A stretch of DNA of 64,000 bases from an uncultured Thermodesulfobacteriota bacterium. GTDB taxonomy: Bacteria > Desulfobacterota > WTBG01 > CAIYCZ01 > CAIRTM01. The position numbers and the translations under genes were made by a program. The notes under the pieces are model-generated. The model saw only the letters and a list, made by a program, of their open reading frames with translations, was not told the DNA's origin and ran no database searches. Shown here in pieces: positions 1 through 28,868 of this stretch. The stretch covers positions 131,619 through 195,618 of the forward strand of contig CAZUMW010000003.1 of the NCBI GenBank assembly GCA_964621615.1, written 5' to 3'. Each line of letters opens with the position of its first letter. Within the stretch, counting starts at the first letter, position 1.

Positions 1-1226
1 GCCACGCAGACACGGTGTTTGAGGTGTTCAGGCAGTCGGTTCGGCAAAGAGCCGCTCTCCACCCCCGCGCATATGTGCCGCTCAGCGGGGGGCTTGACAG
101 CCGGCTTATAGCCGCCTGCATTCCTGAAGGGCAGGATGTGCCGCTGTTTACGTTCAATCCTTCGGTTGCAGACCGGGACACGCCGGAGCTTGCTGCAGCC
201 AGAGAGGTCGCCTTTCTGCTGGGGCGGCAGCACCATGTTGTGAAAACCGCGCCGCCGACACGAATCAGCGATCGCTGCCGGAGGGTGGTGCAGGGCACTG
301 GCGGTCAGAAGGGGCTTCATCATGTTGCCGGAGGCGGCTGGCCGCCGGATGATCTTGTTTGCGACCGGATCCGGCTCAGCGGCGGTCCCGGGGATGTGCT
401 GGCCGGCTCGTACCCGAAATCAATCGATTATATTTATGAAGCAAGCACTGCGCAGTGTGTCGAGCACTTCATGAAAGAGTATGTGCGCGGATCTGCGGTT
501 GGAACGCTCAGGCAGGTAATGCGTACCCCGGCAGCCGATGATCTGTCCGGACAGATCGAGCATCGCCTCCGCGATACCATAAGCGGCATGGAAGGCCCGA
601 CTGCAGCGCATAAAGTCACGGCCTGGTCCATGGTATATCGCCAGCCGTCTTTTACGCTTTTGTCGGGCATGCACCAGTCCCTGTGCCGGGGTGACTGCTG
701 CCCCCATCTGGGCTATGACTATGTTGCGCTGATGCTGCAGCTTCCGGCTGACTGGATTTTCCAGCGCAACTTCTACAAATTCATGATCTATCGGTGCATT
801 CCGGGATTGCGGCACGTGATGTACGCCAATACAGGATCGGTGCTTCCGCCGGCTATGACGGACTACCGCTCTCACCGTCAGCCGCAGGCGTCGCGTTTCA
901 GCGTGCGCAGCATGCTTTCAAAGCCCAAAAGTCTGCTTGCGCGCGGCGCCCGGCGCTTGCGGGCAGCTCCGCCACAGCCTGTTCCGGAGAAGCCGTATCT
1001 GCTTCAGGTGCTGCAGCGCGATCAGGACCTGCACGGGCGTATTCGCCGGTGGTCCACGAGCTCGCCGTCCGCGCGCGAGCTGCTGGACCCTGACAAAACC
1101 GTATCGTTTGTTGACCGGGTGGCACAGGACCGCATCGCGCCGCAGGGATACGGCCCTGCAATGGAATGCTTCGGTGCCCTTGCCACGCTGTGCGTAGCCG
1201 ATGAAATGCTCGGCGCGGGCAGTTGA
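1..1226 (+). CDS. Asparagine synthase-like amidotransferase, C-terminal synthetase domain (5' end outside window)
   Basis: Reading frame is open to position 1. It contains the PP-loop motif YVPLSGGLDSRLIA typical of Asn-synthase C-domains. The N-terminal GATase domain is presumably upstream. Confidence 0.5.
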   Translation, partial: HADTVFEVFRQSVRQRAALHPRAYVPLSGGLDSRLIAACIPEGQDVPLFTFNPSVADRDTPELAAAREVAFLLGRQHHVVKTAPPTRISDRCRRVVQGTGGQKGLHHVAGGGWPPDDLVCDRIRLSGGPGDVLAGSYPKSIDYIYEASTAQCVEHFMKEYVRGSAVGTLRQVMRTPAADDLSGQIEHRLRDTISGMEGPTAAHKVTAWSMVYRQPSFTLLSGMHQSLCRGDCCPHLGYDYVALMLQLPADWIFQRNFYKFMIYRCIPGLRHVMYANTGSVLPPAMTDYRSHRQPQASRFSVRSMLSKPKSLLARGARRLRAAPPQPVPEKPYLLQVLQRDQDLHGRIRRWSTSSPSARELLDPDKTVSFVDRVAQDRIAPQGYGPAMECFGALATLCVADEMLGAGS

Positions 1227-2105: not shown

Positions 2106-3449
2106 ATGGCCGTTAATGACGATGACAGCCGGCATATTCGGCACCGCAGCTCGCCAGACGAGGTTCTGCTGCGCGTTGAAAATGCCGGAAAGAAATTCTG
2201 CACCGACCTCAAGCGCTCCCTGTGGTACGGGGTAAAGGATATCGCCTCCGAGGTTTTTGCGTTAAACAGCAAAGCCCGGCTGCGCAAACAGGAGTTCTGG
2301 GCAAACAAGAGCATTTCCTTTGAGCTGCGCCGGGGAGAAATTATCGGCATCATCGGGCCAAATGGAGCGGGAAAGACCACCCTGCTCAAAATGATCAACG
2401 GAATTATAAAGCCCGATGAGGGCACAATAACCATTAAGGGGGCTGTCGGGGCGCTTATAGCGCTCGGGGCGGGGTTTAACCCCATACTGACCGCGCGTGA
2501 AAATATTTATATAAACAGCGCGGTACTGGGAGTGCCGAAGCGCAAAATCGATGAATCAATTGAAAAGATCATAGCGTTTGCCGAGCTTGAAGATTTTGTC
2601 GACACGCCGGTACAGAATTACAGCTCGGGCATGCGGGTGCGCCTTGGCTTTTCTGTGGCAATCAACATCGCACCCGATGTCCTGATAATTGATGAAGTCC
2701 TGGCTGTCGGCGATCAGGCGTTCAAGCGGAAAGCACAGGAGCAAATCAGGAATCTGCTTTCTTCAGGCGTTGCCGTATTATTCGTGTCACACAATTTAAC
2801 GCAGGTCGCCCGGCTGTGCTCACGTGTGATACATCTTGAGCACGGGAAAATAAAGTCCTTTGGTGATGCGGGCCGGATCGTAGCATCCTATATTGCCGAA
2901 TCCGAAGAGCAGCCCCTGGGCAGCCCGCTTGATAATGCAGAAGCGATTATGACGCGGGCCGAGGCTGCAGATTGGGATAAGCTGATTGTGCACCGGATTC
3001 AGCTTTTCAATCAGAGCGGTGTGGAAACGGCATGCTTTAATACCTTTGATGATATCATCATTCAGATAACGTTCGAATTGCGGCGGCATTTGAAAAACAT
3101 GGAGTTTCAGATAAAAATCAATACAATGTCAGGCGAGCTGGTGTGCAAGTCGATTGCAAAACAAAATGAAAGCGAGATTTTTGAGCTGCACGTCAGGCAT
3201 GCTGTTCAGTGCCGGTTTATCAAGGCGCCCATAGGCAGAGGCCGCTATTCTATTGACCTTTTTGCCGGTGATGAGCACGGGTATATGTTCAAGTCGACGA
3301 TGGCTGCTGAAATCACATTCGAGACCCGCTATAATAATATAAAAAAAATCGGTGACTCGGTATGGTCGGATGAAGACGCGTACAGCAATCTGAGAGAGGT
3401 GACTGATCCGAGCCTGGTACATGTGAAATCGCAGTGGGAGCGTTGGTAA
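2106..3449 (+). CDS. ABC transporter ATP-binding protein (Wzt/TagH-like) with C-terminal extra domain
   Basis: Walker A GPNGAGKTT, signature YSSGMRVRL, Walker B LIIDEVLAVGD. A ~200 aa C-terminal extension resembles the substrate-binding domains of Wzt proteins. The ATG at 2106 lies 2 nt after the permease stop. Confidence 0.8.
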   Translation: MAVNDDDSRHIRHRSSPDEVLLRVENAGKKFCTDLKRSLWYGVKDIASEVFALNSKARLRKQEFWANKSISFELRRGEIIGIIGPNGAGKTTLLKMINGIIKPDEGTITIKGAVGALIALGAGFNPILTARENIYINSAVLGVPKRKIDESIEKIIAFAELEDFVDTPVQNYSSGMRVRLGFSVAINIAPDVLIIDEVLAVGDQAFKRKAQEQIRNLLSSGVAVLFVSHNLTQVARLCSRVIHLEHGKIKSFGDAGRIVASYIAESEEQPLGSPLDNAEAIMTRAEAADWDKLIVHRIQLFNQSGVETACFNTFDDIIIQITFELRRHLKNMEFQIKINTMSGELVCKSIAKQNESEIFELHVRHAVQCRFIKAPIGRGRYSIDLFAGDEHGYMFKSTMAAEITFETRYNNIKKIGDSVWSDEDAYSNLREVTDPSLVHVKSQWERW

Positions 3450-3474
3450 CCTGCACAGAAATCATACGACTGCA

Positions 3475-4455
3475 ATGCAAAAGCCTCTGGTTTTACATAT
3501 AGGTGTCGGGAAAACAGCGACCACATTGTGGCAGAAAAAAGTCTTTCCCCGGCACGGGGACATAGATTACCTCGGGCATCCGCCGCGCAATACCGCTTTG
3601 TCTGATCGCCATCAGAAAGTACAGCAGCTGACAAAAGCACTCATAAGCCTCGATGCGCTGGCCTTTGATGCATCCTACTGGAAACAGTTTTATGAAAGAG
3701 AAATTCAGCCGCATACCGCAGGCGATAAAACCAGAATATTGTCGGAGGAATGGCTGTCGGGGACGCCGGTTTCCCTGTTTCGAACAGATAGAGCGCTTAT
3801 TGCCGGGCGGTTACGTGATGTGTTCGGGAAATGCTGCATTCTTATTGTTATCAGGGACCAGCTCAGCGTTGTGGAATCGATTTATGAAAAGCATCGCTTT
3901 ATGGTTGAGCAGCTATATGATTGGCGCCGTCAGGACAGGCTTTTCACAGATGATATTTCATTTAGCGCATATATCGATTTGTTAATGAGAACGTCTGAAT
4001 GGGGTATACTCTCATTGTATAAGTATTCCGGGTTGATTAATCTATATACATCGCTGTTCGGAAGGGAAAATGTAAAGGTTATGCTGTATGAAGACTTTGA
4101 TGGTAATAAAGAGCATTTTTGTCAGGAAATAGCTGATTTTCTTCAAATAAATTGTAAAGAATTGTTAATAAAGATGCCAAATAGTAGATTGAAAATGAGG
4201 ATATCTGATATTGATCAAAAAATTTTATTTTTAGAAAAAAACAAAAATATAAAAAATAGTATCTTAAGATTTTATATTAAGTTTTCATTGAAAAAATTAT
4301 TAATAAAACAAAAGTTTTTAAAGCATACCAATCCGTATCGTGACCATTACACTGAGGAGACCAGGCAGAAAATACATGACTTTTTCAAAGAAGACAATCA
4401 CATTATTGCTCGCCGGCTGGGGCTTAATCTGAATAAATACCGGTATCCTTTATAA
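3475..4455 (+). CDS. Sulfotransferase-family protein (putative)
   Basis: N-terminal P-loop-like LHIGVGKTATT resembles the 5'-PSB motif of sulfotransferases. The C-terminal half is very AT-rich and K/N-rich. Confidence 0.45.
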   Translation: MQKPLVLHIGVGKTATTLWQKKVFPRHGDIDYLGHPPRNTALSDRHQKVQQLTKALISLDALAFDASYWKQFYEREIQPHTAGDKTRILSEEWLSGTPVSLFRTDRALIAGRLRDVFGKCCILIVIRDQLSVVESIYEKHRFMVEQLYDWRRQDRLFTDDISFSAYIDLLMRTSEWGILSLYKYSGLINLYTSLFGRENVKVMLYEDFDGNKEHFCQEIADFLQINCKELLIKMPNSRLKMRISDIDQKILFLEKNKNIKNSILRFYIKFSLKKLLIKQKFLKHTNPYRDHYTEETRQKIHDFFKEDNHIIARRLGLNLNKYRYPL

Positions 4456-4465
4456 GAATACACCC

Positions 4466-5290
4466 ATGACCCTGCCGAATTTTATAATAGCAGGCGCTAC
4501 CCGTTCGGGAACGTCATCGCTCCATGTGTACTTACGGAAGCACCCTGACGTATATATGCCTGAAAAAAAAGAATTGAATTATTTTAATAATAACGAGGAA
4601 TACAATAAAGGAATTGATTATTACCGGAAACATTTCGAACAGTATAACGGGGAAACAGCGGTAGGCGAAGCAACACCGATGTATATGGAGAAAGGTATTG
4701 TGTACCATTCATCAGGTCAATACGGCTTTCAGGAGGGAAACGATGCCATTGAACGGATTGCCCATGATTTACACAACTGCCGCATAATTATAAGTGTGAG
4801 AAACCCTGTTGATCGTATTTTTTCCATGTACTGGAAAAATTTTTATCAGGGAAAATTACGCTATACATTACATCATTATTTAAAAATGGAAATACACGGG
4901 AAAACAACATGTCTCTCCTCACCGTTTTGTTTTTTGTATCGAAATAAATATGATATTCATTTAAGCAATATATATAATTATATAAAAAAAGAGAATGTTT
5001 TGATTTTGTTTTTTGAGGAGTGGATTAATAATACAAATGAAACAATGAAGACAATATGTAAATTTTTAAATGTATCATATATTAATAAATTTAATTTTTT
5101 TGAAAAAATTAATAAAATTAATATTTACAAAAATAATGATAAATATTTTAATTTTATAATTTTAAAAATTTTTAACAGGCTCAATCATAGAAAAACAAGA
5201 AATATAATTCTTGAAAACTTAGAAGATAGTATTGTTCATGCTGAGGCTCTGTTAGGGCGCTCTTTTGATCTCTGGAGAGTGAAACGCTAA
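4466..5290 (+). CDS. Sulfotransferase-family protein
   Basis: N-terminal FIIAGATRSGTSSL (PAPS 5'-phosphosulfate-binding loop). The 3' half is extremely AT-rich. Confidence 0.6.
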   Translation: MTLPNFIIAGATRSGTSSLHVYLRKHPDVYMPEKKELNYFNNNEEYNKGIDYYRKHFEQYNGETAVGEATPMYMEKGIVYHSSGQYGFQEGNDAIERIAHDLHNCRIIISVRNPVDRIFSMYWKNFYQGKLRYTLHHYLKMEIHGKTTCLSSPFCFLYRNKYDIHLSNIYNYIKKENVLILFFEEWINNTNETMKTICKFLNVSYINKFNFFEKINKINIYKNNDKYFNFIILKIFNRLNHRKTRNIILENLEDSIVHAEALLGRSFDLWRVKR

Positions 5291-5298
5291 TTGACATC

Positions 5299-6084
5299 AT
5301 GGATAAGAAGGCAATGTATGCGGTTGTGTTAAGCTGTGATGCGTATAGATCGTTAGCCGAGCATATGATCTGCCGGTACAGGACGCTGTGGCCTGATCAT
5401 CCGTTCTGTTTTCGGCTGCCGTATCAGCAATTAAACGGCACCGACACAGCACAGGTGAACTATATCCGGACACCGGCAGGAATAAAAGACACCGTACTTA
5501 CGTTATTGGACGACCTCGGTGATAACGAGTGGATATATTGGTGTATCGATGATAAATATCCTGTTTTTTTAGATACAAAAGTTAAAAAAATAGCTCAGTG
5601 GGTCCGCGAAATTACAGAGATAACTGTCAGCGGTATTTTATTTTCCCGGCCTGAGAAATTATATCAGAAGGGGACCCTGAATAAAGACAGCATCACATCA
5701 CATGGGGGTATAAAACTGCGCGGCCGGACCGGCTATGATGCGATATGGAACCATCAGTTTTTACGAGTCAAGGTTATACGGCATTTATTTAATAATTTTC
5801 CGTCCCCGATTCATTGTGCGAAGAACATGGATCCGCTCAAAAGAAGCGTGACGCTTCCCCCGACGCACCGGTTGTTTGTAACAAAAAAAAGTTATGCTGT
5901 TTTTGGAGAGAGCACGTCCCGCGGTTTATTGACAAAAAATTGTTACGACAGCATCATGAAAAATAATTTGCCGTTACCCCCCTGGTTCAGCCAGACGAAC
6001 GGTGAAATAAAAATTCTCGGTAAAACCGGCTTTCTTACTTCGATGAGAATTTTTTTTGATAAAGTCCGGTCTGCAAAATTATAA
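5299..6084 (+). CDS. Hypothetical protein, possibly a nucleotide-sugar-dependent transferase
   Basis: 261 aa ORF in operon context. Contains a DxD-like CIDDKY. No firm family recognised. Confidence 0.3.
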   Translation: MDKKAMYAVVLSCDAYRSLAEHMICRYRTLWPDHPFCFRLPYQQLNGTDTAQVNYIRTPAGIKDTVLTLLDDLGDNEWIYWCIDDKYPVFLDTKVKKIAQWVREITEITVSGILFSRPEKLYQKGTLNKDSITSHGGIKLRGRTGYDAIWNHQFLRVKVIRHLFNNFPSPIHCAKNMDPLKRSVTLPPTHRLFVTKKSYAVFGESTSRGLLTKNCYDSIMKNNLPLPPWFSQTNGEIKILGKTGFLTSMRIFFDKVRSAKL

Positions 6085-6085
6085 T

Positions 6086-6115
6086 GTACTCCGCTGATTG
6101 GAGTACGTTTGTTCG
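6086..6115 (+). terminator. Weak hairpin terminator candidate
   Basis: GTACTCC-gctgatt-GGAGTAC followed by GTTTGTT, directly after the stop codon of the 5299-6084 gene. Confidence 0.3.
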
Positions 6116-6171
6116 GAATCCGGTAAACAATTTCGATTCTCTATTTTTCGGCGAACCTGTAAGCGTGCGAA

Positions 6172-7077
6172 ATGAATAATTTATTTTTTATATTGTATGA
6201 TTCACGATCCGGCTCTACTTTTCTTGCCAATCATTTGAGCAGATTATCTAATATTATTATACCCCCGGAAAATAATATAATTTCCTTACTTTTAAAAAAA
6301 TATCCTATCGAACAAAAGGTATCATTGGCTGACGTCATGAATTCAATATATGAGGATAGCAAATTTCAGGACTGGAATCTTGAAAGGGAATATATTGCAT
6401 CATATTTTAAAAACAAAAATATTGTAAGCATTAGAGAGTTTCTTGTTGGGTTGTTTTTTGTATATTGCACAAAGCTCGACAGTAAGGATTATCTTTTTGG
6501 AATAAAAAAGGGCAGTTATATCTTTTATTGGCGATCGATTAGAGCATTATTCCCTGAGGCAAAATTTGTGTGCCTCATACGAGACGGCAGAGCCGTATTT
6601 AACTCAAAAAAAAAGAGCATTTATTCAAAGACAGGAGAACCTTTTGAAAAAAGCCCTGTTCATGCTGCCGTTAAATGGAAAAACAAAATTCATGAAATAC
6701 GCAAACTGGAAGAAGAGCTGCCCGATAATACGCTTGTTGTATTATATGAAGACATAATGAAGGATTATGACCAAATGCTTGCTAAGATAAGTGAATTTTT
6801 GGGTGCCTCCCGGAATGCACAATATCATATGTATGCCCTGCCTGATAAGTATTCCAATCTTCACCCTCACATTGACAGCCCTCCCAAACTGGAACATATT
6901 AACAAATGGGAAAACGAGCTGTGTGATAATGAAATTGTAGCGTTTGAGACGATCGCGCACCAGGAATTACAAAAGAATGGATACCGGTTAAAAAGTAATA
7001 AAATTGAAAGGCTTACTATTCGATGCAGGCTGCAGTTAAAAAAATTTTTACGCAATACACGAATTGAGCGTACGTGA
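6172..7077 (+). CDS. Sulfotransferase-family protein (Stf0-like)
   Basis: N-terminal FFILYDSRSGSTFLANHL (PAPS-binding P-loop). AT-rich gene. Confidence 0.55.
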   Translation: MNNLFFILYDSRSGSTFLANHLSRLSNIIIPPENNIISLLLKKYPIEQKVSLADVMNSIYEDSKFQDWNLEREYIASYFKNKNIVSIREFLVGLFFVYCTKLDSKDYLFGIKKGSYIFYWRSIRALFPEAKFVCLIRDGRAVFNSKKKSIYSKTGEPFEKSPVHAAVKWKNKIHEIRKLEEELPDNTLVVLYEDIMKDYDQMLAKISEFLGASRNAQYHMYALPDKYSNLHPHIDSPPKLEHINKWENELCDNEIVAFETIAHQELQKNGYRLKSNKIERLTIRCRLQLKKFLRNTRIERT

Positions 7078-7154
7078 GAAGATGGTGTCGGAAAAGGGAT
7101 CTCACAGGTGAGATAAGCAGCGACGTTTTTTCATGCATGTTCATATGGTAGGCA

Positions 7155-8102
7155 GTGATGTTGATTATATGGAGTAGATTAAAAAAACAAAAGATTGCTA
7201 ATGTGTCATTGCTTTATCATATGGTCGGCTATGATCATAAAAATAATTTTATTAACAATAATATACATGGGATTGATGAAGATACATTCTATAGTCAAAT
7301 AAAATTATTAAAAAATAAATTTAGTTTTATTTATATAGATGAGATGGTCGAGAGAATAAAAAAAAGAAAATCTATAAAAAAACAGGCTTCAGTTACCTTT
7401 GATGACGGATATGTATCAATTTTGAATAAGGCTGTGCCGATTCTTGAGAGCTTAGAGATACCGGCGACACTTTTTTTGACAACAAAGCTTATTACCGGAG
7501 GCTCTTTTTGGCGTGACAAGGTGCGATACATCATTAACACCGGAATGACGCAGGAATTTCTTTCCTACGCGCGTCGGCGGGAACCGCTTTTTCATAATGT
7601 CCGGTCTGAATCTTTTTACCGTGAAACCAAGGACCCGGCTGTTATACACAGCGGGGCTGTTGAAACAATGCTGGACCGCTTTTTCTCGTACAAAGATATT
7701 GAGATCGAGCCGTATGCGAAAAAAACATATTGCAGTAAGAATGACCTTGCCGGCAGGCGGAATCGCTATCTGATGTTCGGCAATCACACGCACAGCCATT
7801 ATGTTTTATCCAGTCTTAACACAGATGAACAATATGAAGAGATTGTGCAGGCTGAAAAAATATTACATTTACTTGGGCTTCCCCTGTCAAAGGTTTTTTC
7901 CATCCCGTTTGGCCGGGATAGAGATTTTACTGCAGAAACACTCGACATACTCAGGCAGCGCGGGTATTCCGGGTATGCCATGTCTTCAGGGAGCACGATT
8001 GAAAATGCCTTTTCACCTGCAGTCGGCATCCGCAAAAATGACCTTGTCAGAATAAACCGGCTTATGCCTGAAAATAAACCAGCGGCATTTGTTCAACAAT
8101 GA
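7155..8102 (+). CDS. Polysaccharide deacetylase (NodB/CE4 family)
   Basis: VTFDDGYVSILNKAVPILESLEIPATLFLTT is the canonical CE4 TFDDG motif region. Conserved His-containing segment later in the protein. Confidence 0.7.
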   Translation: MMLIIWSRLKKQKIANVSLLYHMVGYDHKNNFINNNIHGIDEDTFYSQIKLLKNKFSFIYIDEMVERIKKRKSIKKQASVTFDDGYVSILNKAVPILESLEIPATLFLTTKLITGGSFWRDKVRYIINTGMTQEFLSYARRREPLFHNVRSESFYRETKDPAVIHSGAVETMLDRFFSYKDIEIEPYAKKTYCSKNDLAGRRNRYLMFGNHTHSHYVLSSLNTDEQYEEIVQAEKILHLLGLPLSKVFSIPFGRDRDFTAETLDILRQRGYSGYAMSSGSTIENAFSPAVGIRKNDLVRINRLMPENKPAAFVQQ

Positions 8103-8911
8103 GCAGAATAAACAGAAAACAAACGGGAGTATGCTTTGCTGTCGGGTGCGGGAGATCCGGAACCCATTTCCTCACGCGGATATTTAAAGAGGATCCCGCC
8201 ATTGCTTCTCATCATCTGGACACTATCGGTGAGTCAACCGGTGACAGCTTTCTTGAGTACTGCGAATGGAACCGGCTTCCGGTGGATCACGAAGGGTTTT
8301 TTCTGAATCGAAAAGAGCTGATAGACAGGTCAGCAGCAGCGGGCCGGTTATATTTTGAGGCAAATCCCTATCTTTCATTGAGCATTGTTCCCCTTCGCGA
8401 ACGATTTAATGCACAGGTTATCGCCCTGGTGAGAAACCCCCATGATGTGGTTAACTCTCATTATGTGAAAGGCTGGTATGAATACAATTTTGTGAGGGGA
8501 AGCAGCGCAAAGGCGCCCGGCTATCAATATCAAGCAAAAAGGGCAAACCATTTTTTCGGCAGAATTGTTCCGAGCGGCAATGAGTTCGACCGCTGGCTCC
8601 GGTTGTCAAGAATAGGAAAAATAGCATGGATGTGGAATGCGGTTAACAAAGAAATCATCAGTCAGCTCAGCGCTGTTCCGGAAGAGCATTGCCGGCTGAT
8701 AAAGGTGGAACATATTGATTTCGATATGTATCTGCAGCTGCATTCTTTTATCGGCGGCAAAGCGGCGATGACAAAAAGCGAGTTCAGCAAAATCAAAAAC
8801 AACAGGCCGGGGAAGGGACCTGAGAAGAGGCATATGTCCGATTGGTCGAGTCGGGAAAAAAGGGAATTTATAAAAGAAACAGAAGAAATGTGTTCGATCC
8901 TGAGCTACTGA
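8099..8911 (+). CDS. Sulfotransferase-family protein
   Basis: N-terminal CFAVGCGRSGTHFLTRIF P-loop. Overlaps the deacetylase stop (ATGA). Confidence 0.55.
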   Translation: MSRINRKQTGVCFAVGCGRSGTHFLTRIFKEDPAIASHHLDTIGESTGDSFLEYCEWNRLPVDHEGFFLNRKELIDRSAAAGRLYFEANPYLSLSIVPLRERFNAQVIALVRNPHDVVNSHYVKGWYEYNFVRGSSAKAPGYQYQAKRANHFFGRIVPSGNEFDRWLRLSRIGKIAWMWNAVNKEIISQLSAVPEEHCRLIKVEHIDFDMYLQLHSFIGGKAAMTKSEFSKIKNNRPGKGPEKRHMSDWSSREKREFIKETEEMCSILSY

Positions 8912-8980
8912 ACAGATGCACGCACATTGTATGCAGGACGGCTGTCTTTACTCCGGGACGAACCATCATGATGGTTTTTT

Positions 8981-9940
8981 ATGGATGATCACGATATTAC
9001 CGTGGTAATACGCTCAGCGCAGGACCGTACCGCGGCCGTCTGCAGTTATTTGGTAGGAAAATTATTTTCCGGTGATCGCGTATATAGTATTGAAGAAAGA
9101 CCTTTCTCAGCCGCGGTGCGAGCGGCGCTCGCAATAGGAGCTGAGCGCAGCCGGCCGTGGACGATGGTTGTTGATGCTGATGTGCTGATATCTGCAGGCG
9201 GTGTGGCTGCCCTTTGTAATGCAGCCGAAGCCGCTCCTGATAATTTTTTTGCGGTACAGGGCCTTATTTTGGATAAATTTTTTCCGGTCTTCCGCCCGTC
9301 AGGCATTCATATGTACAGAACGTCTTTAATTGATACGGCTCTCAGGTGCATACCTGCAGAGGGCACTTCTTTGCGCCCTGAATCGGATATGATCGATTCC
9401 ATGGCTCAGATGGGCTGCCCGTGGCTGCAGTGTGACGCCGTGGTCGGGGTTCACGATTTTGAGCAATACTACGCCGATATATTCAGGAAATGTTTTGTGC
9501 ATGCGCACAAGCATCAAAGCGTTATCGGCAGAGCTGAAGCATACTGGCGGGAGCAGCTCGACAGGGATTATGACTTCCAGGTGGCGCTGTGGGGCAGCGC
9601 TCTCGGCAAATCACATACCGGGCCGGTTGCTATAGATAAACAATGTGCCGAAAGACAATTTTGTGAGGTTGCTTCGATTAAGGGGATTGAGGAGAAGCCG
9701 GAGCTGTCCACGGGGGGCGACGATGCTGTTGCGGACAAAATATTGGGCGCCTATGACAGGGACTCTTTTGCTGAGTTACAGGCTGCCTTTTTTCGCAAAG
9801 AGCGGTGGAACATGGTTCATCGGTACGATGCCGAGACAAACGATACGGGGGCTGCAGGGCGGATGCCGTTTGTGAGAAAAGTACTGAGCGCAGCGGGCAA
9901 TGGCCTGATAGCCCTCGGGAAGCGTCTGCGGCATCAGTAA
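8981..9940 (+). CDS. Hypothetical protein, possible GT-A glycosyltransferase
   Basis: 319 aa. Has a VVDADV DxD-like motif. Family not firmly recognised. Confidence 0.3.
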   Translation: MDDHDITVVIRSAQDRTAAVCSYLVGKLFSGDRVYSIEERPFSAAVRAALAIGAERSRPWTMVVDADVLISAGGVAALCNAAEAAPDNFFAVQGLILDKFFPVFRPSGIHMYRTSLIDTALRCIPAEGTSLRPESDMIDSMAQMGCPWLQCDAVVGVHDFEQYYADIFRKCFVHAHKHQSVIGRAEAYWREQLDRDYDFQVALWGSALGKSHTGPVAIDKQCAERQFCEVASIKGIEEKPELSTGGDDAVADKILGAYDRDSFAELQAAFFRKERWNMVHRYDAETNDTGAAGRMPFVRKVLSAAGNGLIALGKRLRHQ

Positions 9941-10054: not shown

Positions 10055-11665
10055 CTACGGAGGGGGAACCGCATAGATGCGCACGCCGCGTTTTCCTCGT
10101 GTAAAATCCCGAACCAGAACAAAGCCCGACCAATCCAGCGAAAAATACCGCTCTGTGACAACAATATAGTCGAACCCCTTCCGGCGGTAATATGCCGGGG
10201 GATGCCCCGGCTTTTCGAGATCCTGCCAGAGGCGGTAGCGCCGGAAGTCATCGGCGCGGAAGCCGGCAGGCTCAAACACATATACGAGGTCATACCACGT
10301 TTCGGGGCGAACCGTGAGGAGCAGCTCGAGGTGCTCGGCTTTCATAAGGTTATGCGCGCGTGCGCGCGCGAGCTGACGGCGGATGTTTGCGGGGTCATTG
10401 CTGAGCTTCGGCCCTTTGTTTCCGGCATTGTCAAGGAGGATTTTCGAGCCCGCCGGAACGTGCTCCTCGATCCACTCCCGCGCCTGGGTGTCGATGCTTT
10501 TTTGAGATCGCAGGATATTCCAGCTGACTGCACAGTACAGGGGGTGTGCGATCAGTATGACAAGCAGCGCTGTCACGGCAGGAGCCTTAAGGCGGGAACA
10601 GGCCAGGGAGAACAAAACCGCGCCGCATACCGCAGTAACGGGCAGCGCATGAAGAATATATTTTGGCTCGACATAGCGGTGCATCGACTTGAACAGCAGG
10701 ACCGCGAGGGCGGCAATCACGACCGGCATCAGCCGCCGCGGGTACCGGAGCGGCGCCAGCACCAGGCCGGCGACACAAAGCGCACCCAGGGGCCTGCCCC
10801 AGTAGTCCACTGCAAGATGTCTGATATAGGCGGGCAGGTTAAAGCCGCTGAATGAGTGCATGGCCCTCAGCGCTGCAGCCTCCTTCAGGGCTGATGCTAT
10901 CTCGATGTAAAAAAACGGGCAGGCGGCAAAGTGTCCCGCCAGCACGCTTGCGCTGGCAAAAAGCAGCCTGGGCGACCATATTTTTTCACCGATTGTTTCA
11001 CCGCTGCTGCGCAGCAGATGTGCACATACAAGAGCAGGATACGCAAAGATCCCGTCAAACTTCGCCGCCGCTGCCAGGCCGACCGCAAAGCCGGCTGCGC
11101 AGTAGCTCGCCATGCTTCCGCTTTTGAACAGCCGGATGCTTAAATACACTGCCAGCGTAAAAAAGAACGTCATGGTGATGTCGACGGTACAGTAGTGTGA
11201 GTGCACGATATGCTGAAAGCAGACCGCAAGAAAAATCGCGGCATATAGCCCGGTGCTTGAGCTTCGTATCTGTGTGCCGATACGGTATGCAAGGTACACG
11301 GCAGCAGTGCCGAAAAGCGCTGAAAGCGTTCTTGCGATGATATAAAAGGCGGACGGGTCGCGGATAAACGCGGCGGCGAACTGCTCTACGGAAGAAACCT
11401 GTCCGGACAGAAAGCATAAAACAAAATAAGCGCCATAGAGAGCAAACAGCAGATACTGCATAAGCGTTCCGTACTGAAACCGGTGGGGGTTCAGGTCGCC
11501 GCTCCCAAAGCGCACCGCATGGTTTACGACCTCGGTTTCGTCGCCGTGGCTCATGGCCGGCAGGCCGTAGGATATCCCCCACACGCGCAGCCCGAGAGCG
11601 CTGATGAGCACGGCTAACAGTATATATCCGGTATGCTTTTTTCCCGAAGGCGGTATGCTCATCAT
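10055..11665 (-). CDS. GT-C fold membrane glycosyltransferase (ArnT / PMT family 39/83-like)
   Basis: 536 aa with ~10 predicted TM helices. N-terminal ILLAVLISALGLRVWGISYGLP...HGDETE is typical of the ArnT/PMT family. C-terminal soluble domain. Confidence 0.6.
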   Translation of the reverse strand: MMSIPPSGKKHTGYILLAVLISALGLRVWGISYGLPAMSHGDETEVVNHAVRFGSGDLNPHRFQYGTLMQYLLFALYGAYFVLCFLSGQVSSVEQFAAAFIRDPSAFYIIARTLSALFGTAAVYLAYRIGTQIRSSSTGLYAAIFLAVCFQHIVHSHYCTVDITMTFFFTLAVYLSIRLFKSGSMASYCAAGFAVGLAAAAKFDGIFAYPALVCAHLLRSSGETIGEKIWSPRLLFASASVLAGHFAACPFFYIEIASALKEAAALRAMHSFSGFNLPAYIRHLAVDYWGRPLGALCVAGLVLAPLRYPRRLMPVVIAALAVLLFKSMHRYVEPKYILHALPVTAVCGAVLFSLACSRLKAPAVTALLVILIAHPLYCAVSWNILRSQKSIDTQAREWIEEHVPAGSKILLDNAGNKGPKLSNDPANIRRQLARARAHNLMKAEHLELLLTVRPETWYDLVYVFEPAGFRADDFRRYRLWQDLEKPGHPPAYYRRKGFDYIVVTERYFSLDWSGFVLVRDFTRGKRGVRIYAVPPP

Positions 11666-11752
11666 ATGCGTGTCCCTTTCCGGGCCTGCATCGTAGCGGT
11701 AATAATTGCTGGTGCTGCAGGCGCGATACCATATGTTTTAAGGAAATGTTCC

Positions 11753-12544
11753 ATGGGCACCAAGCACGATCTGTTGACAGAAGAGCACATGTGCAAAGCG
11801 GCCGTCGACGCCTCGCTTACCAAACAGATTGATCTGTTCATGTCCGGACGCCCGGGCATGAAACCGGCAGACGTAAACATACTTGACTGGGGATGCGGGC
11901 GGGGCCGAACGGTCGCCACGCTTCTTGAAATGGGTTTTAACGCATTGGGCGTTGATGTTGATGATCGCATATTAAAAAACGGATACCGGCTGTTTAAAAG
12001 CCGCGGGTTTGACCCGTCTGAAATTCTTCTGCACCTGAGCAGGATACAAACCTTTCCAGACATGTTTTTTCATATTATTTTTTCCGAGCAGGTCATTGAG
12101 CATGTCGCTGATTTGAAATGGTTTGTGCAAGAGCAGCGGCGGCTGACCGCACCCGGCGGCATGGGGCTTCACACCTTTCCGGGATCGTGCTGGGTGGTTG
12201 AGCCGCATGTAAAAATGCCCTTTGTTCACTGGCTGCCGAAAAACGCATCACGGAAAATAATGATCGCTCTCATGCGCCTTGCCGGGTTCGGGCCTGACGC
12301 TGTATCATGGCCTGAGGCAAAAGAAAAATCCTTTTGGCAGGTTTGTGATATTTTTTTCCGGTACCTTAATGAAAAAACATATTACCGTGATATCAGAACC
12401 GTTCAAAAAGAATATGAAACACAGGGGTTTGCAGTAACGGTACGCCATTCAAAGCCGCCTGAAAACCGCAACAGCTCCTCTTTTCTGATAAGAAACGGCT
12501 TCATGAAAAGTCAAATTCAGCTTTCAGCGTATCGTCCCTCCTGA
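11753..12544 (+). CDS. Class I SAM-dependent methyltransferase
   Basis: Motif I LDWGCGRGRTVATLLEMGFNALGVDVD. The ATG at 11753 was chosen because the longer frame from 11633 overlaps the upstream minus-strand gene. Confidence 0.65.
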   Translation: MGTKHDLLTEEHMCKAAVDASLTKQIDLFMSGRPGMKPADVNILDWGCGRGRTVATLLEMGFNALGVDVDDRILKNGYRLFKSRGFDPSEILLHLSRIQTFPDMFFHIIFSEQVIEHVADLKWFVQEQRRLTAPGGMGLHTFPGSCWVVEPHVKMPFVHWLPKNASRKIMIALMRLAGFGPDAVSWPEAKEKSFWQVCDIFFRYLNEKTYYRDIRTVQKEYETQGFAVTVRHSKPPENRNSSSFLIRNGFMKSQIQLSAYRPS

Positions 12545-13863: not shown

Positions 13864-15063
13864 TTATGTGGCGGTGATATGTGCATAGAGATCAGCATAT
13901 CGCTGAACAATATGGTTCAGGGTATACTTTTCTGCGACCAGCGCACGGGCGTTATGCCCGATGCGCTTCGCCGTGTCCGGATTGCCCAGAACAAAGCTGA
14001 GCGCATCGGCAAGGCTTTCTGCATCGCCGGGCTCGGCAAGCATCCCGGTTACGCCGTCTGTGATAAGCTCGCTGTTGCCGGCCGTCCGGGTTGCAACAAC
14101 GCACAGGCCGCTTGCCATCGCTTCGAGTATTGCATTAGACATGCCTTCAAACTGAGACGGCATGACAAAAACGTCGGCTGACCGCAGATAGGGACGCACG
14201 TCGTCTGCTGCAGGAACGAAATGCACGCTGTTTTCAAGGCCGCGGGACGTTACCATGTCTGTCAGCCGGCTGCGCTCCGGCCCGCTGCCGATAATATACA
14301 GGTGTGCCGTCCCCCCTGTGCGAAGGCGTGCGAATGCTTCGATAAGGACGCCAAGGCCCTTTTCCGGTGAGAGGCGCCCGGTATAGACAATAATCTGCCG
14401 GTTTTCAGATACATCGGGCCCCGGCACTTGTTTATGAAAATTATTATCTTTATTATACAGGGTAATATCAACGCCGTTCGGAATTTTAACAATGCCGGTT
14501 CCGGGATGCCCGATTTCTTCCAGCTCTGTGATCATACGATCATTCAGTGCGATAACGCAGGAGGCATATCTGCACAAAAAAAGAAACAGCTTTCCCCATG
14601 GGGTTCTTTTATGCCTGAGCACGTCCCCTCCGTGCCCGCTGCTTGAAAGGCTCAGCAGTGCCGGCAGCCCGCATGCCCTTGCCAGCAGTATCGCTGCCGC
14701 GGAGCTGTATCCAATCTGAAATGCATGAACAAGCCCGGTCGCTTTGCGATTCCTTAAAAGGTACATGGCAAGGGCTGATAAAAAGAATGCCGCACCGATG
14801 CATTTTATGCGTGGAGAAAAAAGCCGCACCACCGGCACCCCCTGCACTGATTCTTTTTTTGCCCAGGAAGGATGAAACCGTGACGTAACGATTTCAACCG
14901 TCACGCCGCGCCGTGTTAACGCGGCGGCAAGGCTGAGCGCCCTTTTTTCAAGCCCGCCGATGAACGGATAAAAATAGCGGATAACAAAGATTATTTTTGT
15001 ATTATTCAATTTTTGAACCTGCGTATGTATGCCTGCTATTCCCTGCTTCCGGTGTATAAGCAC
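13864..15063 (-). CDS. Glycosyltransferase family 4
   Basis: N-terminal YPFIGGLEKRALSLAAAL and C-terminal EGMSNAILEAMASGLCVVAT (the GT4 E-x7-E region). Confidence 0.75.
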   Translation of the reverse strand: MLIHRKQGIAGIHTQVQKLNNTKIIFVIRYFYPFIGGLEKRALSLAAALTRRGVTVEIVTSRFHPSWAKKESVQGVPVVRLFSPRIKCIGAAFFLSALAMYLLRNRKATGLVHAFQIGYSSAAAILLARACGLPALLSLSSSGHGGDVLRHKRTPWGKLFLFLCRYASCVIALNDRMITELEEIGHPGTGIVKIPNGVDITLYNKDNNFHKQVPGPDVSENRQIIVYTGRLSPEKGLGVLIEAFARLRTGGTAHLYIIGSGPERSRLTDMVTSRGLENSVHFVPAADDVRPYLRSADVFVMPSQFEGMSNAILEAMASGLCVVATRTAGNSELITDGVTGMLAEPGDAESLADALSFVLGNPDTAKRIGHNARALVAEKYTLNHIVQRYADLYAHITAT

Positions 15064-28790: not shown

Positions 28791-28868
28791 GATATACTGA
28801 TCACCTTTTGTTTCACCATATAAGCGGTTAGCTCCTACCATATGTATCAGAAGCGCGAAGATAATTCA

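What the first reader, a model, noticed from the sequence alone, without database searches (positions are those of the whole stretch)
3475..8911. Four sulfotransferase-family genes in an ABC-transporter-dependent polysaccharide locus: candidate sulfated glycan pathway
The Wzm/Wzt exporter is followed by four ORFs with PAPS-binding P-loop-like N-termini (GVGKTATT, ATRSGTSS, SRSGSTF, CGRSGTHF) and interleaved with a CE4 deacetylase. The wider locus adds GT4/GT2-like/GT-C transferases, a radical-SAM enzyme, a methyltransferase, a Wzy/ligase-like protein and, at 26952-28790, a membrane-anchored sulfatase. Multiple sulfotransferases plus a dedicated sulfatase in one EPS/LPS locus is unusual for bacteria. 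It implies a multiply sulfated, possibly N-deacetylated/N-sulfated (heparan-like) polymer, with the sulfatase performing remodelling or editing.
Basis: partly seen in the sequence, partly recalled or inferred. Interest (0 to 1): 0.6.

Follow-up and report, generated by a model that had tools for sequence, protein, structure and literature searches.

The report
Four-sulfotransferase glycan export operon
An uncultured bacterium carries one tightly packed operon that joins a sugar-polymer exporter to four unrelated sulfate-adding enzymes and a deacetylase; it very likely makes a heavily sulfated surface glycan, and it contains a conserved deacetylase-sulfotransferase gene pair that may be how bacteria put sulfate on sugar amino groups.

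Summary
Window 3475-8911 encodes four sulfotransferase-superfamily proteins directly after wzm/wzt, with a CE4 deacetylase among them. ST2 and ST3 pass Pfam cut-offs. ST1 and ST4 are borderline alone, but conserved PAPS-binding motifs, family-level profile hits and confident models that match only sulfotransferases secure them. The four share no BLASTP similarity and all look cytoplasmic. Three independent assemblies span the low-GC block.

The 'sulfatase' at 26952-28841 has the fold but reads T-K-P-S-V where the formylglycine motif C/S-x-P-x-R should be. Pilin, pilSR, pyrimidine and asnB genes separate it from the glycan genes. 'Heparan-like' is unproven, and PAPS supply cannot be checked.

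New here: CE4, ST4 and the unannotated downstream gene U319 form a conserved module. In the window's ST4 clade 11 of 13 loci have an adjacent CE4, against 3 of 65 outside it. ST4-U319 fusions exist. The whole layout recurs in Verrucomicrobia, Planctomycetes and Bacteroidota genomes.

Best reading: a multiply sulfated glycan exported by an ABC transporter, with CE4+ST4 possibly acting as a split N-deacetylase/N-sulfotransferase. It is a new variant of a known kind, of moderate interest.

The parts
15..1226 (+). 3' part of an AsnB-like amidotransferase gene. The full gene encodes 627 aa and starts upstream of the window, preceded by a GT8 gene.
   Evidence: Asn_synthase at 33 bits. The full gene and the GT8 are seen on independent contig L004.
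1261..2103 (+). wzm, the ABC-2 permease of the glycan exporter
   Evidence: ABC2_membrane at 40 bits; best NCBIfam hit is Wzm/RfbD. Five TM-like segments.
2106..3449 (+). wzt, the ATPase of the exporter, with a C-terminal carbohydrate-binding Wzt_C domain
   Evidence: ABC_tran at 85 bits and Wzt_C at 35.1 bits, cut-off 30.4. The 447-aa gene call comes from L004.
3475..4455 (+). ST1, a divergent sulfotransferase with PKxATT-type 5'-PSB and RxxxxxxxS 3'-PB motifs. Its nearest structures are bacterial 3rnl, the heparan-sulfate 3-OSTs and the NDST1 sulfotransferase domain.
4466..5290 (+). ST2, a clear sulfotransferase. By sequence it is closest to 3rnl, HS 3-O-sulfotransferases 5 and 1, and the NDST1 sulfotransferase domain.
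   Evidence: Pfam at 55 and 53 bits. PDB phmmer E-values from 3e-17 to 2e-7.
5299..6084 (+). U261, a soluble protein of unknown function with homologues in cyanobacterial sulfotransferase loci
   Evidence: No Pfam, NCBIfam or PDB hit. Homologues in L019 and L020.
6172..7077 (+). ST3, a clear sulfotransferase nearest to the CurM and olefin-synthase sulfotransferase domains and to TPST
   Evidence: Sulfotransfer_3 at 82 bits. PDB hits.
7155..8102 (+). Cytoplasmic CE4 polysaccharide deacetylase with an intact Asp-His-His metal site. Its stop codon overlaps the ST4 start by 4 nt.
   Evidence: Polysacc_deac_1 at 60 bits. TFDDG, H211 and H215 are invariant in 8 partner proteins, and there is no signal peptide or TM segment.
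8099..8911 (+). ST4, a TPST-like sulfotransferase (GxGRSGT 5'-PSB motif) belonging to a CE4-linked clade
8981..9940 (+). U319, a member of an unmodelled family (at least 378 proteins, invariant D65-x-D67). It is a conserved neighbour of ST4 and is sometimes fused to it.
   Evidence: No PDB or Pfam hit.
10055..11665 (-). GT-C (PMT_2/ArnT-like) membrane glycosyltransferase, convergent with the operon
   Evidence: PMT_2 at 46 bits. Seven TM-like segments.
11633..12544 (+). SAM-dependent methyltransferase with an N-terminal TM segment
   Evidence: Methyltransf_11 at 46 bits; TM segment
12628..13863 (-). Radical-SAM/SPASM enzyme, not identifiable as a sulfatase maturase
   Evidence: Radical_SAM and SPASM. 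The best NCBIfam hits are twitch/NirJ-like and far below their cut-offs.
13864..15063 (-). GT4 glycosyltransferase
   Evidence: Glycos_transf_1 at 143 bits
15111..16445 (-). Wzy_C-family membrane protein (O-antigen ligase or O-oligosaccharyltransferase type), 112 bp downstream of a pilin gene
   Evidence: Wzy_C at 67 bits. Twelve TM-like segments.
26952..28841 (-). Membrane-anchored sulfatase-fold protein that lacks the formylglycine motif (T-K-P-S-V). Judged NOT to be part of the sulfation pathway; listed because the finding invoked it.
   Evidence: PF00884 at 169 bits. Alignments to 7oz8, 7stt and 4upi. TM segments.

Best explanation
Window 1-9940 is one co-directional operon, tightly packed from wzm to U319: (GT8)-asnB-like-wzm-wzt-ST1-ST2-U261-ST3-CE4-ST4-U319. 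It belongs to an ABC-transporter-dependent glycan pathway.

Proposed mechanism. The glycan is built on a lipid carrier at the cytoplasmic face by glycosyltransferases (GT8 upstream, the nearby GT4, and possibly U319). While still cytoplasmic, it is decorated by four soluble PAPS-dependent sulfotransferases from four unrelated lineages, which implies several chemically distinct sulfation sites. Within this set, CE4 and ST4 act as a coupled pair: CE4 removes an N-acetyl group from a hexosamine, and ST4 sulfates the exposed amine. That makes them a split functional counterpart of animal NDST. U319 works on the same residue. The finished polymer is exported by Wzm/Wzt, whose C-terminal domain recognises a chain-end modification. 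A Wzy_C-family enzyme then attaches it to lipid A-core or to a protein.

Shown: the gene identities, the motifs, the predicted cytoplasmic location, the operon packing, and the conserved CE4-ST4-U319 linkage. Inferred: the substrate, N- versus O-sulfation, the acceptor, and the PAPS supply.

The 35-40% GC core of the cassette, set in a roughly 57% GC genome, together with its scattered distribution across phyla, indicates horizontal spread. The sulfatase-fold gene at 26952-28841 is not part of this pathway.
For: - Operon: gaps of 2-87 nt between genes from wzm to U319, plus the 4-nt CE4/ST4 overlap.
- Sulfotransferase identity of all four.
- Four distinct lineages: pairwise BLASTP E > 0.1.
- No TM-like segments in the sulfotransferases, CE4 or U261.
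- ST1 and ST2 are nearest to carbohydrate (heparan-sulfate) sulfotransferases.
- Wzm, and Wzt with Wzt_C.
- CE4 catalytic residues are invariant in the partner proteins.
- CE4-ST4 adjacency in Desulfonema magnum and two metagenome loci, one with the same 4-nt overlap.
- 10 of the 12 CE4 genes detected lie within 500 bp of the ST4 homologue, in both orders.
- 11 of 13 members of the window's ST4 clade have an adjacent CE4, against 3 of 65 outside it; Fisher p = 3e-9.
- ST4-U319 fusion proteins: L020, P0225, P0227.
- The same overall layout occurs in L033, L070, L025, L030, L015 and L009.
- Three independent assemblies are 100% identical across both GC junctions.
- Precedents: sulfated bacterial polysaccharide clusters with sulfotransferases (PMC8205485, PMC11641403); N-sulfated bacterial EPS with no known enzyme (PMC7356697); NDST1 couples a His-His-Asp (beta/alpha)7 deacetylase to a sulfotransferase (PMC10864358).
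Against: - No biochemical data exist for any of these proteins.
- No PAPS-synthesis genes (cysC, cysDN) are in the window or in the comparator loci, whereas the Vibrio sulfated-CPS cluster carries its own cysNDC (PMC11641403).
- ST4's closest structures are tyrosylprotein and polyketide sulfotransferases, not the NDST sulfotransferase domain.
- CE4 enzymes also include O-deacetylases.
- No initiating phosphoglycosyltransferase (WecA or WbaP type) was found in the window.
- The clade statistic is post hoc. It comes from an unbootstrapped neighbour-joining tree and ignores shared ancestry.
- The host organism is unknown.
Confidence: 0.55

Rival explanations
1. Chain-terminator model. ST4, or another of the sulfotransferases, adds a single sulfate to the non-reducing end of the glycan. 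This cap stops elongation and is the signal read by the Wzt C-terminal domain for export, in the way methyl-phosphate (WbdD) works in E. coli O9a or beta-Kdo works in Klebsiella O12. Sulfation by that enzyme would then be one group per chain and not along the chain. This can coexist with the main model if the cap is an N-sulfo-hexosamine made by U319, CE4 and ST4.
For: The window's Wzt carries Wzt_C. Nine of ten Wzt proteins encoded next to ST4 homologues hit Wzt_C, seven at or above the cut-off, and L008 and L009 do as well. In L036, L041, L042, L045, L049, L071 and L078 the ST4 homologue follows wzm-wzt, directly in most of them and without a CE4 gene. That is the position of wbdD in E. coli O9a (established knowledge). 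Aeromonas salmonicida has a sulfotransferase-domain ORF right after wzt although no sulfate was seen in its O-antigen (PMC4483657), which fits a sub-stoichiometric cap.
Against: Four sulfotransferases are more than a cap needs. The Wzt-adjacent cyanobacterial ST4 homologues form a clade separate from the window's CE4-linked clade. The background frequency of Wzt_C among Wzt proteins was not measured. A methyltransferase at 11633-12544 is an equally good terminator candidate. No sulfate cap has ever been reported, as far as the searches here show.
Confidence: 0.2
2. Non-polysaccharide substrate. The sulfotransferases act on something other than a polymer. One option is a lipo-oligosaccharide or glycolipid made in the manner of a Nod factor (CE4 in the role of NodB, an ABC-2 exporter in the role of NodIJ, a sulfotransferase in the role of NodH). 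Another is tyrosines of a secreted or surface protein.
For: Wzt scores 110-112 bits against the NodI models, and Wzm/Wzt are ABC-2 proteins like NodIJ. ST3 and ST4 are structurally closest to tyrosylprotein and polyketide sulfotransferases. NodS-like methyltransferases sit in the Desulfonema and L070 loci. No initiating transferase or chain-length regulator is in the window.
Against: The NodI scores are far below the model cut-offs (about 420-550) and lower than the TagH and Wzt scores. There is no NodC-like chitin synthase and no NodA. Wzt_C, Wzy_C, GT4, GT8 and GT-C all point to a polymer or lipid-linked glycan. ST1 and ST2 are nearest to polysaccharide sulfotransferases.
Confidence: 0.12
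3. One reading: a heparan-like, N- and O-sulfated polymer whose sulfation pattern is edited by the dedicated membrane-anchored sulfatase at 26952-28841.
For: The PF00884 fold scores 169 bits, and the best NCBIfam and PDB relatives are sulfatases. ST1 and ST2 resemble heparan-sulfate sulfotransferases.
Against: The formylglycine motif is replaced by T-K-P-S-V in all three best structural alignments. The radical-SAM enzyme does not match a sulfatase maturase among its best hits. About 10 kb of pilin, two-component-system and pyrimidine genes separate this gene from the operon. The sulfatase-like gene co-occurs with ST4 homologues in only 1 of 79 loci, and there at 6.4 kb distance. No heparosan-type synthase is present.
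Confidence: 0.05

Closest known systems
Synechan (xss) cluster of Synechocystis PCC 6803 and related cyanobacterial sulfated-EPS clusters (PMC8205485)
   Same: Sulfotransferase genes are embedded in a bacterial polysaccharide biosynthesis cluster together with glycosyltransferases. [quoted passage not shown]
   Different: xss is Wzx/Wzy-dependent and has two sulfotransferases. It has no CE4 and no U319, and it is regulated by XssQ/R/S. The window is ABC-type, has four sulfotransferases, carries the CE4-ST4-U319 module, and shows no cyanobacterial features.
Sulfated capsular polysaccharide cluster of Vibrio sp. KMM 8419 (PMC11641403)
   Same: A non-cyanobacterial locus with ABC-transporter export and several sulfotransferases, with evidence of horizontal acquisition.
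   Different: It uses a Kps-type capsule exporter. Its three sulfotransferases are spread over about 80 genes. The cluster has its own cysNDC for PAPS and no deacetylase-sulfotransferase pair. In the window no PAPS genes are nearby.
Animal heparan sulfate N-deacetylase/N-sulfotransferase NDST1 (PMC10864358)
   Same: A metal-dependent deacetylase (His-His-Asp site on a beta/alpha barrel) is coupled to a PAPS-dependent sulfotransferase. Here the coupling shows as a 4-nt gene overlap and conserved adjacency.
   Different: NDST is one Golgi membrane polypeptide. Here there are two soluble cytoplasmic proteins. ST4 is closer in structure to TPST and CurM than to the NDST sulfotransferase domain, and N-sulfation is not demonstrated.
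E. coli O9a / Klebsiella O12 ABC-transporter O-antigen pathways with Wzt carbohydrate-binding domains (established knowledge)
   Same: Wzm plus a Wzt with a C-terminal binding domain, cytoplasmic completion of the polymer, and modification genes next to wzm-wzt.
   Different: The known caps are methyl, methyl-phosphate or beta-Kdo. No sulfotransferase is known in those systems.
Rhizobial Nod-factor pathway (NodB CE4 deacetylase, NodH sulfotransferase, NodIJ ABC-2 exporter; established knowledge)
   Same: It combines a cytoplasmic CE4 de-N-acetylase, a PAPS sulfotransferase and an ABC-2 exporter.
   Different: There is no NodC or NodA here. NodH O-sulfates the reducing end. The product is an oligosaccharide and not a polymer.

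Membership tests
PAPS-dependent sulfotransferase superfamily (PF00685 / PF13469) | Profile match at or above the curated cut-off | tested here: met
   ST2 scores 55 and 53 bits and ST3 scores 82 bits, both clear. ST1 scores 22.2 against a cut-off of 22. ST4 scores 23.2 against 27 and fails alone. However, 36 of 50 ST1 relatives, and many ST4 relatives, pass on their own.
PAPS-dependent sulfotransferase superfamily (PF00685 / PF13469) | 5'-phosphosulfate-binding loop (PKxGTT or xRSGT[ST]) directly after the first beta-strand | tested here: met
   GVGKTATT, ATRSGTSS, SRSGSTF and CGRSGTHF sit at residues 10-25. K13 is nearly invariant in the ST1 family. G16, R19, G21 and T22 are invariant in the ST4 family.
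PAPS-dependent sulfotransferase superfamily (PF00685 / PF13469) | 3'-phosphate-binding motif (R-x7-S after a beta-strand) | tested here: met
   RDQLSVVES at 127, RNPVDRIFS at 112, RDGRAVFNS at 137 and RNPHDVVNS at 112. R127 and S135 are invariant in the ST1 family. R112 and S120 are nearly invariant in the ST4 family.
PAPS-dependent sulfotransferase superfamily (PF00685 / PF13469) | Sulfotransferase fold | tested here: met
   For the ST4 model (pLDDT 93), all 23 PDB hits at E <= 0.001 are sulfotransferases. For the ST1 model (pLDDT 85), all 50 listed hits are sulfotransferases. ST2 and ST3 were not modelled but hit solved sulfotransferases by sequence.
PAPS-dependent sulfotransferase superfamily (PF00685 / PF13469) | Sulfuryl transfer from PAPS to an acceptor | not testable with these tools
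   This needs an enzyme assay.
ABC-transporter-dependent (Wzm/Wzt) glycan pathway | ABC-2 permease plus a Wzt ATPase | tested here: met
ABC-transporter-dependent (Wzm/Wzt) glycan pathway | Wzt C-terminal carbohydrate-binding domain, which implies a chain-end cap | tested here: met
   Wzt_C at 35.1 bits, cut-off 30.4. The capping enzyme is not identified.
ABC-transporter-dependent (Wzm/Wzt) glycan pathway | Initiating phosphoglycosyltransferase and absence of a Wzx flippase | tested here: inconclusive
   No WecA- or WbaP-type protein and no Wzx appeared among the ORFs scanned. The initiator may be encoded elsewhere.
S1 formylglycine-dependent sulfatases | Sulfatase (alkaline-phosphatase-like) fold | tested here: met
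   PF00884 at 169 bits. 72 PDB sequences match at E <= 1e-5, nearly all named sulfatases.
S1 formylglycine-dependent sulfatases | C/S-x-P-x-R motif that is converted to catalytic formylglycine | tested here: not met
   The aligned positions read T-K-P-S-V against 7oz8 (S-T-P-A-R), 7stt (A-S-P-T-R) and 4upi (A-G-P-S-R).
S1 formylglycine-dependent sulfatases | A cognate maturase (FGE or anaerobic sulfatase-maturing radical-SAM enzyme) | tested here: inconclusive
   The only radical-SAM/SPASM protein in the window (12628-13863) best matches twitch/NirJ-type models far below their cut-offs. No sulfatase maturase is among the 25 hits shown.
NDST-type N-deacetylase/N-sulfotransferase | Deacetylase with an Asp-His-His metal site coupled to a sulfotransferase | tested here: met
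   CE4 has TFDDG, H211 and H215 invariant. There is a 4-nt overlap with ST4 and adjacency is conserved.
NDST-type N-deacetylase/N-sulfotransferase | Both activities on one polypeptide homologous to NDST | tested here: not met
   The two are separate genes. ST4's best structural matches are TPST and CurM, not NDST.
NDST-type N-deacetylase/N-sulfotransferase | N-sulfation of glucosamine in a polymer | not testable with these tools
   This needs an enzyme assay or glycan analysis.
Synechan-type xss cluster | Wzx/Wzy-dependent assembly with PCP and OPX proteins | tested here: not met
   The window uses Wzm/Wzt. No Wzx, PCP or OPX protein was detected.

The most novel reading that the evidence does not exclude
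CE4 + ST4 (+ U319) is a widespread, horizontally mobile prokaryotic module that installs N-sulfo-hexosamine residues, working as a split bacterial equivalent of animal NDST. It would be the missing enzymology behind the N-sulfated 'glycosaminoglycan-like' exopolymers reported from Pontiella and from granular and anammox sludge. In this operon the N-sulfated residue may additionally serve as the chain-end cap read by the Wzt binding domain, which would be a new class of O-polysaccharide terminator.
Probability: 0.3. Interest if true: 0.8.

Novelty: new variant of a known kind. Interest (0 to 1): 0.55.

Why it matters
Sulfated polysaccharides are common in animals and algae but rarely documented in bacteria, and very few bacterial polysaccharide sulfotransferases have been characterised. 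N-sulfated bacterial exopolymers have been measured (PMC7356697), yet no prokaryotic enzyme for that step is known.

Making N-sulfated heparosan in bacteria is a stated bottleneck for animal-free heparin, and it is currently addressed with artificial deacetylase-sulfotransferase fusions (PMC13353177).

A naturally coupled, soluble, cytoplasmic deacetylase-sulfotransferase pair is a directly testable candidate for that chemistry. The pair is conserved across phyla, and a cultured carrier exists (Desulfonema magnum).

The operon also supplies four unrelated soluble sulfotransferases in one glycan pathway, which is a compact toolbox for regiospecific glycan sulfation. If sulfate turns out to be a chain-end signal for a Wzt exporter, that would extend the known logic of O-antigen chain-length control.

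Tried and rejected
- Source organism. Exact look-ups returned only short contigs from three Logan runs (SRR7048224, SRR7048225, SRR7048228). The 208-kb NCBI contig could not be retrieved and has no name on record. It is not among the GTDB species representatives, where the best ST4 match is 50%. No paper cites the runs. Taxonomy and the genome-wide PAPS check therefore remain open.
- ST1 looked like an orphan in the word-indexed search, with only itself returned. The exhaustive HMMER search overturned this.
- U319 as a GT-A glycosyltransferase. A profile search of the PDB was empty. hhalign against a GT2 and a GT8 gave probabilities of 1% or less. No Pfam domain appears in any of the 120 relatives listed.
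- U261 has no informative hit anywhere.
- Wzy_C protein as WaaL-type versus PglL/TfpO-type. There is no PDB hit, and the NCBIfam hits are weak and mixed. The acceptor is undecided.
- A tblastn test for the Wzt C-terminal domain in related loci found nothing because the domain is too divergent. A Pfam scan replaced it.
- Promoter and terminator scans around the convergent junction did not exceed the shuffled background.
- Radical-SAM enzyme as a sulfatase maturase: not supported.
- Assembly chimera as the cause of the low-GC block: rejected.
- Recent tandem duplication as the origin of the four sulfotransferases: rejected.

Full report
THE OBSERVATION

On the + strand the window opens inside an AsnB-like amidotransferase gene (15-1226). 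The following genes come next: wzm (1261-2103), wzt (2106-3449), ST1 (3475-4455), ST2 (4466-5290), an unannotated ORF U261 (5299-6084), ST3 (6172-7077), a CE4 deacetylase (7155-8102), ST4 (8099-8911) and a second unannotated ORF U319 (8981-9940).

Gaps from wzm to U319 are 2-87 nt, and CE4 and ST4 overlap by 4 nt, so this reads as one operon. An independent contig shows that a GT8 gene and the full 627-aa AsnB-like gene lie just upstream of the window. Wzm is an ABC-2 permease. Wzt carries both the ATPase domain and the C-terminal Wzt_C carbohydrate-binding domain, at 35.1 bits against a cut-off of 30.4.

ARE ALL FOUR REALLY SULFOTRANSFERASES?

ST2 and ST3 pass Pfam's curated cut-offs comfortably. 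ST1 sits exactly at the cut-off, matched only on its C-terminal half. ST4 falls below the cut-off. I tested those two at family level.

- ST1. The word-indexed search returned only the window's own protein. An exhaustive HMMER search found 2,280 relatives, 474 of them at E <= 1e-10. In an alignment of 50, the family consensus is IHIGxPKTATT...ITIRNQxxxxxSxY, with K13, R127 and S135 invariant or nearly so. Of the 50 members, 36 hit PF00685 and 35 hit PF13469 on their own. An AlphaFold2 model (pLDDT 85) matches only sulfotransferases among the 50 listed PDB hits. The list is led by bacterial 3rnl, followed by heparan-sulfate 3-O-sulfotransferases and the NDST1 sulfotransferase domain.
- ST4. It has more than 60 relatives, many annotated PF13469. 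G16, R19, G21 and T22 are invariant, and R112, P114 and S120 are nearly invariant. In its model (pLDDT 93), all 23 PDB hits at E <= 0.001 are sulfotransferases: TPST1/2, the CurM and olefin-synthase domains, and cytosolic SULTs.
- ST2 and ST3. By sequence alone ST2 is closest to 3rnl, HS 3-OST-5 and 3-OST-1, and the NDST1 sulfotransferase domain. ST3 is closest to CurM/OLS and TPST.

All four carry both PAPS-binding motifs. They share no BLASTP-detectable similarity with each other (all E > 0.1), so they represent four lineages and not recent duplicates. None has a TM-like segment, so they should work in the cytoplasm, where PAPS is available. CE4 is also soluble and has an intact TFDDG...HxxxH catalytic core.

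IS THE LOW-GC BLOCK REAL?

Genes from ST1 to CE4 have 31-43% GC, against roughly 50-60% on either side. Contigs assembled independently from three sequencing runs are 100% identical to the window. They span both junctions: wzt into ST1, and ST4 into U319. The block is therefore a genuine part of this genome, most likely acquired horizontally, and not an assembly chimera.

THE WIDER 'LOCUS' AND THE 'SULFATASE'

The region convergent with the operon and beyond it holds these genes: a GT-C/PMT_2 protein, a methyltransferase, a radical-SAM/SPASM enzyme, a GT4, and a Wzy_C-family protein. All are confirmed.

After those, the gene content changes to a type IVa pilin, pilS/pilR, pyrC, pyrB, pyrR and an asnB-type amidotransferase. 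Only then comes the sulfatase-fold gene at 26952-28841.

That protein has about five N-terminal TM segments and a strong PF00884 domain. In the alignments to its three best structural relatives, the catalytic formylglycine position and the motif arginine align with Thr and Val. It reads T-K-P-S-V against S-T-P-A-R, A-S-P-T-R and A-G-P-S-R. Without C/S-x-P-x-R it cannot be matured to formylglycine. A Thr nucleophile is the hallmark of the phosphoryl-transfer members of this fold, such as LtaS, EptA/MCR and NPP (established knowledge).

The radical-SAM enzyme does not resemble a sulfatase maturase among its best hits. A homologue of the sulfatase-like gene accompanies ST4 homologues in only 1 of 79 loci, and there it lies 6.4 kb away. 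I therefore reject the 'dedicated editing sulfatase' part of the interpretation.

No cysC or cysDN gene is in the window.

WHAT COMPARATIVE GENOMICS ADDS

Context look-ups for three ST4 homologues each showed a CE4 gene immediately adjacent:
- Desulfonema magnum: ST4-CE4-Wzy_C-Wzx-GT4.
- A JGI metagenome contig: Wzt(Wzt_C)-MT-MT-AsnB-CE4-ST4-ST-GT4.
- An ENA contig: wzm-wzt(Wzt_C)-AsnB-like-CE4-ST4, with the same 4-nt overlap.

A scan of GTDB species representatives returned 79 loci from many phyla. By tblastn, every detectable CE4 homologue (10 of 10 loci) and every U319 homologue (11 of 11 loci) lay within 1.5 kb of the ST4 homologue. With purpose-built HMMs, 10 of the 12 CE4 genes detected were within 500 bp, and both gene orders occur.

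A neighbour-joining tree of 78 ST4 homologues puts the window's protein in a 13-member clade. The clade spans Bacteroidota, Desulfobacterota, Bipolaricaulota, Fraserbacteria, Acidobacteria and unclassified MAGs. Eleven of its members have an adjacent CE4, against 3 of 65 outside the clade. Fisher's exact p is 3e-9, with the caveats that the clade was defined after seeing the tree and that lineages are not independent. The CE4 partners keep D83, D84, H211 and H215 invariant and lack signal peptides.

U319 belongs to a family of at least 378 proteins with no Pfam model. Its invariant residues include D65-x-D67. In L020, P0225 and P0227 it is fused to a full ST4-like domain, and in P0305 to a methyltransferase.

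The window's overall layout also recurs:
- L033 (Verrucomicrobia): GT4-Wzm-ST-ST-ST-ST-AsnB-ST4-CE4-U319.
- L070 (Planctomycetales): ST-Wzm-Wzt(Wzt_C)-ST-ST-MT-AsnB-ST4-CE4-GT4x3.
- L025, L030 and L015 (Bacteroidota): reduced versions of the same arrangement.

Most loci are simpler. Of the 79, 54 have one sulfotransferase ORF and 18 have two. Four sulfotransferases is the high end of a recurrent design.

MECHANISM

The most economical reading is an ABC-transporter-dependent glycan pathway.
1. Glycosyltransferases build the polymer on a lipid carrier in the cytoplasm.
2. Four soluble sulfotransferases of different lineages sulfate it at different positions.
3. CE4 removes an N-acetyl group and ST4 acts on the product. 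U319 works on the same residue.
4. Wzm/Wzt export the polymer after the Wzt_C domain recognises a chain-end feature.
5. A Wzy_C-type enzyme attaches it to lipid A-core or to a protein.

Step 3 is inferred from translational coupling, conserved adjacency in both orders, clade-specific co-inheritance and gene fusion. It is not inferred from any activity. It parallels NDST1, whose deacetylase domain is a (beta/alpha)7 barrel with a His-His-Asp site joined to a sulfotransferase domain (PMC10864358). ST4's nearest structures are TPST and CurM and not NDST, which weakens any claim of homology to NDST. It does not exclude the chemistry.

I put about 0.7 on 'sulfated glycan exported by Wzm/Wzt' and about 0.35 on 'ST4 is an N-sulfotransferase acting on the CE4 product'.

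RIVALS

(a) Chain-terminator model. The Wzt partner of ST4 homologues hits Wzt_C in 9 of 10 cases tested (7 of them at or above the cut-off), as do the window's own Wzt and those in L008 and L009. In seven mostly cyanobacterial loci the ST4 homologue follows wzm-wzt, directly in most of them and without CE4. That is where wbdD sits in E. coli O9a. Aeromonas salmonicida has an unexplained sulfotransferase-domain ORF right after wzt, and no sulfate was seen in its O-antigen (PMC4483657). However, those cyanobacterial genes form a different clade from the window's ST4, and four sulfotransferases exceed what a cap needs.

(b) A non-polymer substrate, either Nod-factor-like or protein tyrosine. This is possible, but Wzt_C, Wzy_C, GT4, GT8, GT-C and the polysaccharide-type relatives of ST1 and ST2 all argue against it.

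COMPARISON WITH WHAT IS KNOWN

Sulfotransferase-bearing polysaccharide clusters are established in two cases. One is synechan in Synechocystis, which has two sulfotransferases and is Wzx/Wzy-dependent. The authors also note ABC-type clusters with sulfotransferases in other cyanobacteria (PMC8205485). The other is a Vibrio sulfated capsule with three sulfotransferases, a Kps ABC exporter and cysNDC within the cluster (PMC11641403).

Pontiella makes EPS that is 75-80% N-sulfated, and its authors state that no prokaryotic glycosaminoglycan sulfotransferase is known (PMC7356697). My literature searches found no description of a native bacterial deacetylase/N-sulfotransferase pair. They found only an engineered fusion made for heparin production (PMC13353177).

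The window is therefore a new variant of a known kind. The class is known. New here are the four-lineage sulfotransferase set on a Wzm/Wzt(Wzt_C) exporter outside the cyanobacteria, and above all the conserved CE4-ST4-U319 module.

VERDICT

Interest is 0.55. A specialist would find it moderately surprising, and it turns an open question (which enzymes N-sulfate bacterial glycans) into a directly testable one. It rests entirely on sequence, predicted structure and genomic context.

Noticed in passing
window 45793-64000: A tRNA-Met gene (45793-45869) is followed at once by a tyrosine integrase (45988-47457, minus strand) and a lower-GC stretch. That stretch encodes ArdC-like antirestriction/metallopeptidase, HerA/TrwB-like ATPase and ThiF-family proteins. 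It is probably an integrative, possibly conjugative, element inserted at the tRNA, and it runs to the end of the window.
   Followed up: partly
window 15111-17016 (minus strand): A type IVa prepilin gene (G|FTLIE cleavage site, 152 aa) lies 112 bp upstream of the Wzy_C-family gene, with pilS/pilR just before it. This resembles the pilA-tfpO/pilO arrangement of Pseudomonas aeruginosa (from memory). The sulfated glycan might therefore be attached to pilin and not to lipid A-core. No tool result separated the two options.
   Followed up: partly
window 8981-9940; L020 7992-9848; P0225, P0227, P0305: U319 belongs to a family of at least 378 proteins of about 320 aa with no Pfam model and no solved relative. 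It has 27 invariant residues, including R11, R16, D65, D67, H158, D159 and K170. It occurs fused to an ST4-like sulfotransferase or to a methyltransferase domain, which makes it a candidate for a new family definition.
   Followed up: partly
window 5299-6084; L019 8987-9757; L020 5411-6232: U261 is a soluble 261-aa protein with no database match. It has 37-42% identical homologues next to sulfotransferase genes in two cyanobacterial MAGs, so it may be another conserved accessory of these cassettes.
   Followed up: partly
window 23850-30620: A second envelope-related gene group surrounds the sulfatase-fold gene. It includes an asnB whose best match is the XrtA/PEP-CTERM-system amidotransferase model (633 bits, below the cut-off of 817), an unannotated 345-aa ORF, and a 592-aa protein with C-terminal TPR repeats and an uncharacterised N-terminal 440 aa. 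The GT4 and Wzy_C proteins also best match exosortase-associated models, which hints at a PEP-CTERM/exosortase EPS system in this organism.
   Followed up: no
window 30683-36340 (minus strand): There is a 1,314-aa Ser/Thr protein kinase fused to about 14 WD40 repeats. Next to it is an FHA-GAF-adenylate/guanylate cyclase. This signalling pair is typical of developmentally complex bacteria.
   Followed up: no
L048 8001-8768: An ST4 homologue (38% identity) sits on a 208-kb contig of an Asgard archaeon MAG (Candidatus Borrarchaeum yapensis). This is either inter-domain transfer or a binning artefact.
   Followed up: no
L070 13625-14839: The Planctomycetales comparator locus carries a gene that matches the alpha-2,8-polysialyltransferase family (PF07388, 60 bits) downstream of the sulfotransferase/CE4 cassette. 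This suggests a glycan that is both sialylated or otherwise ulosonic-acid-bearing and sulfated.
   Followed up: no
L007 8837-9457; L070 5284-6015: Methyltransferases that match the NodS family lie beside the ST4/CE4 genes in Desulfonema magnum and in the Planctomycetales locus. NodS N-methylates the amine exposed by the CE4 enzyme NodB. The amine produced by CE4 may thus be a shared target for methylation and sulfation. The Pfam scores are low, so this could simply be a generic methyltransferase signal.
   Followed up: no
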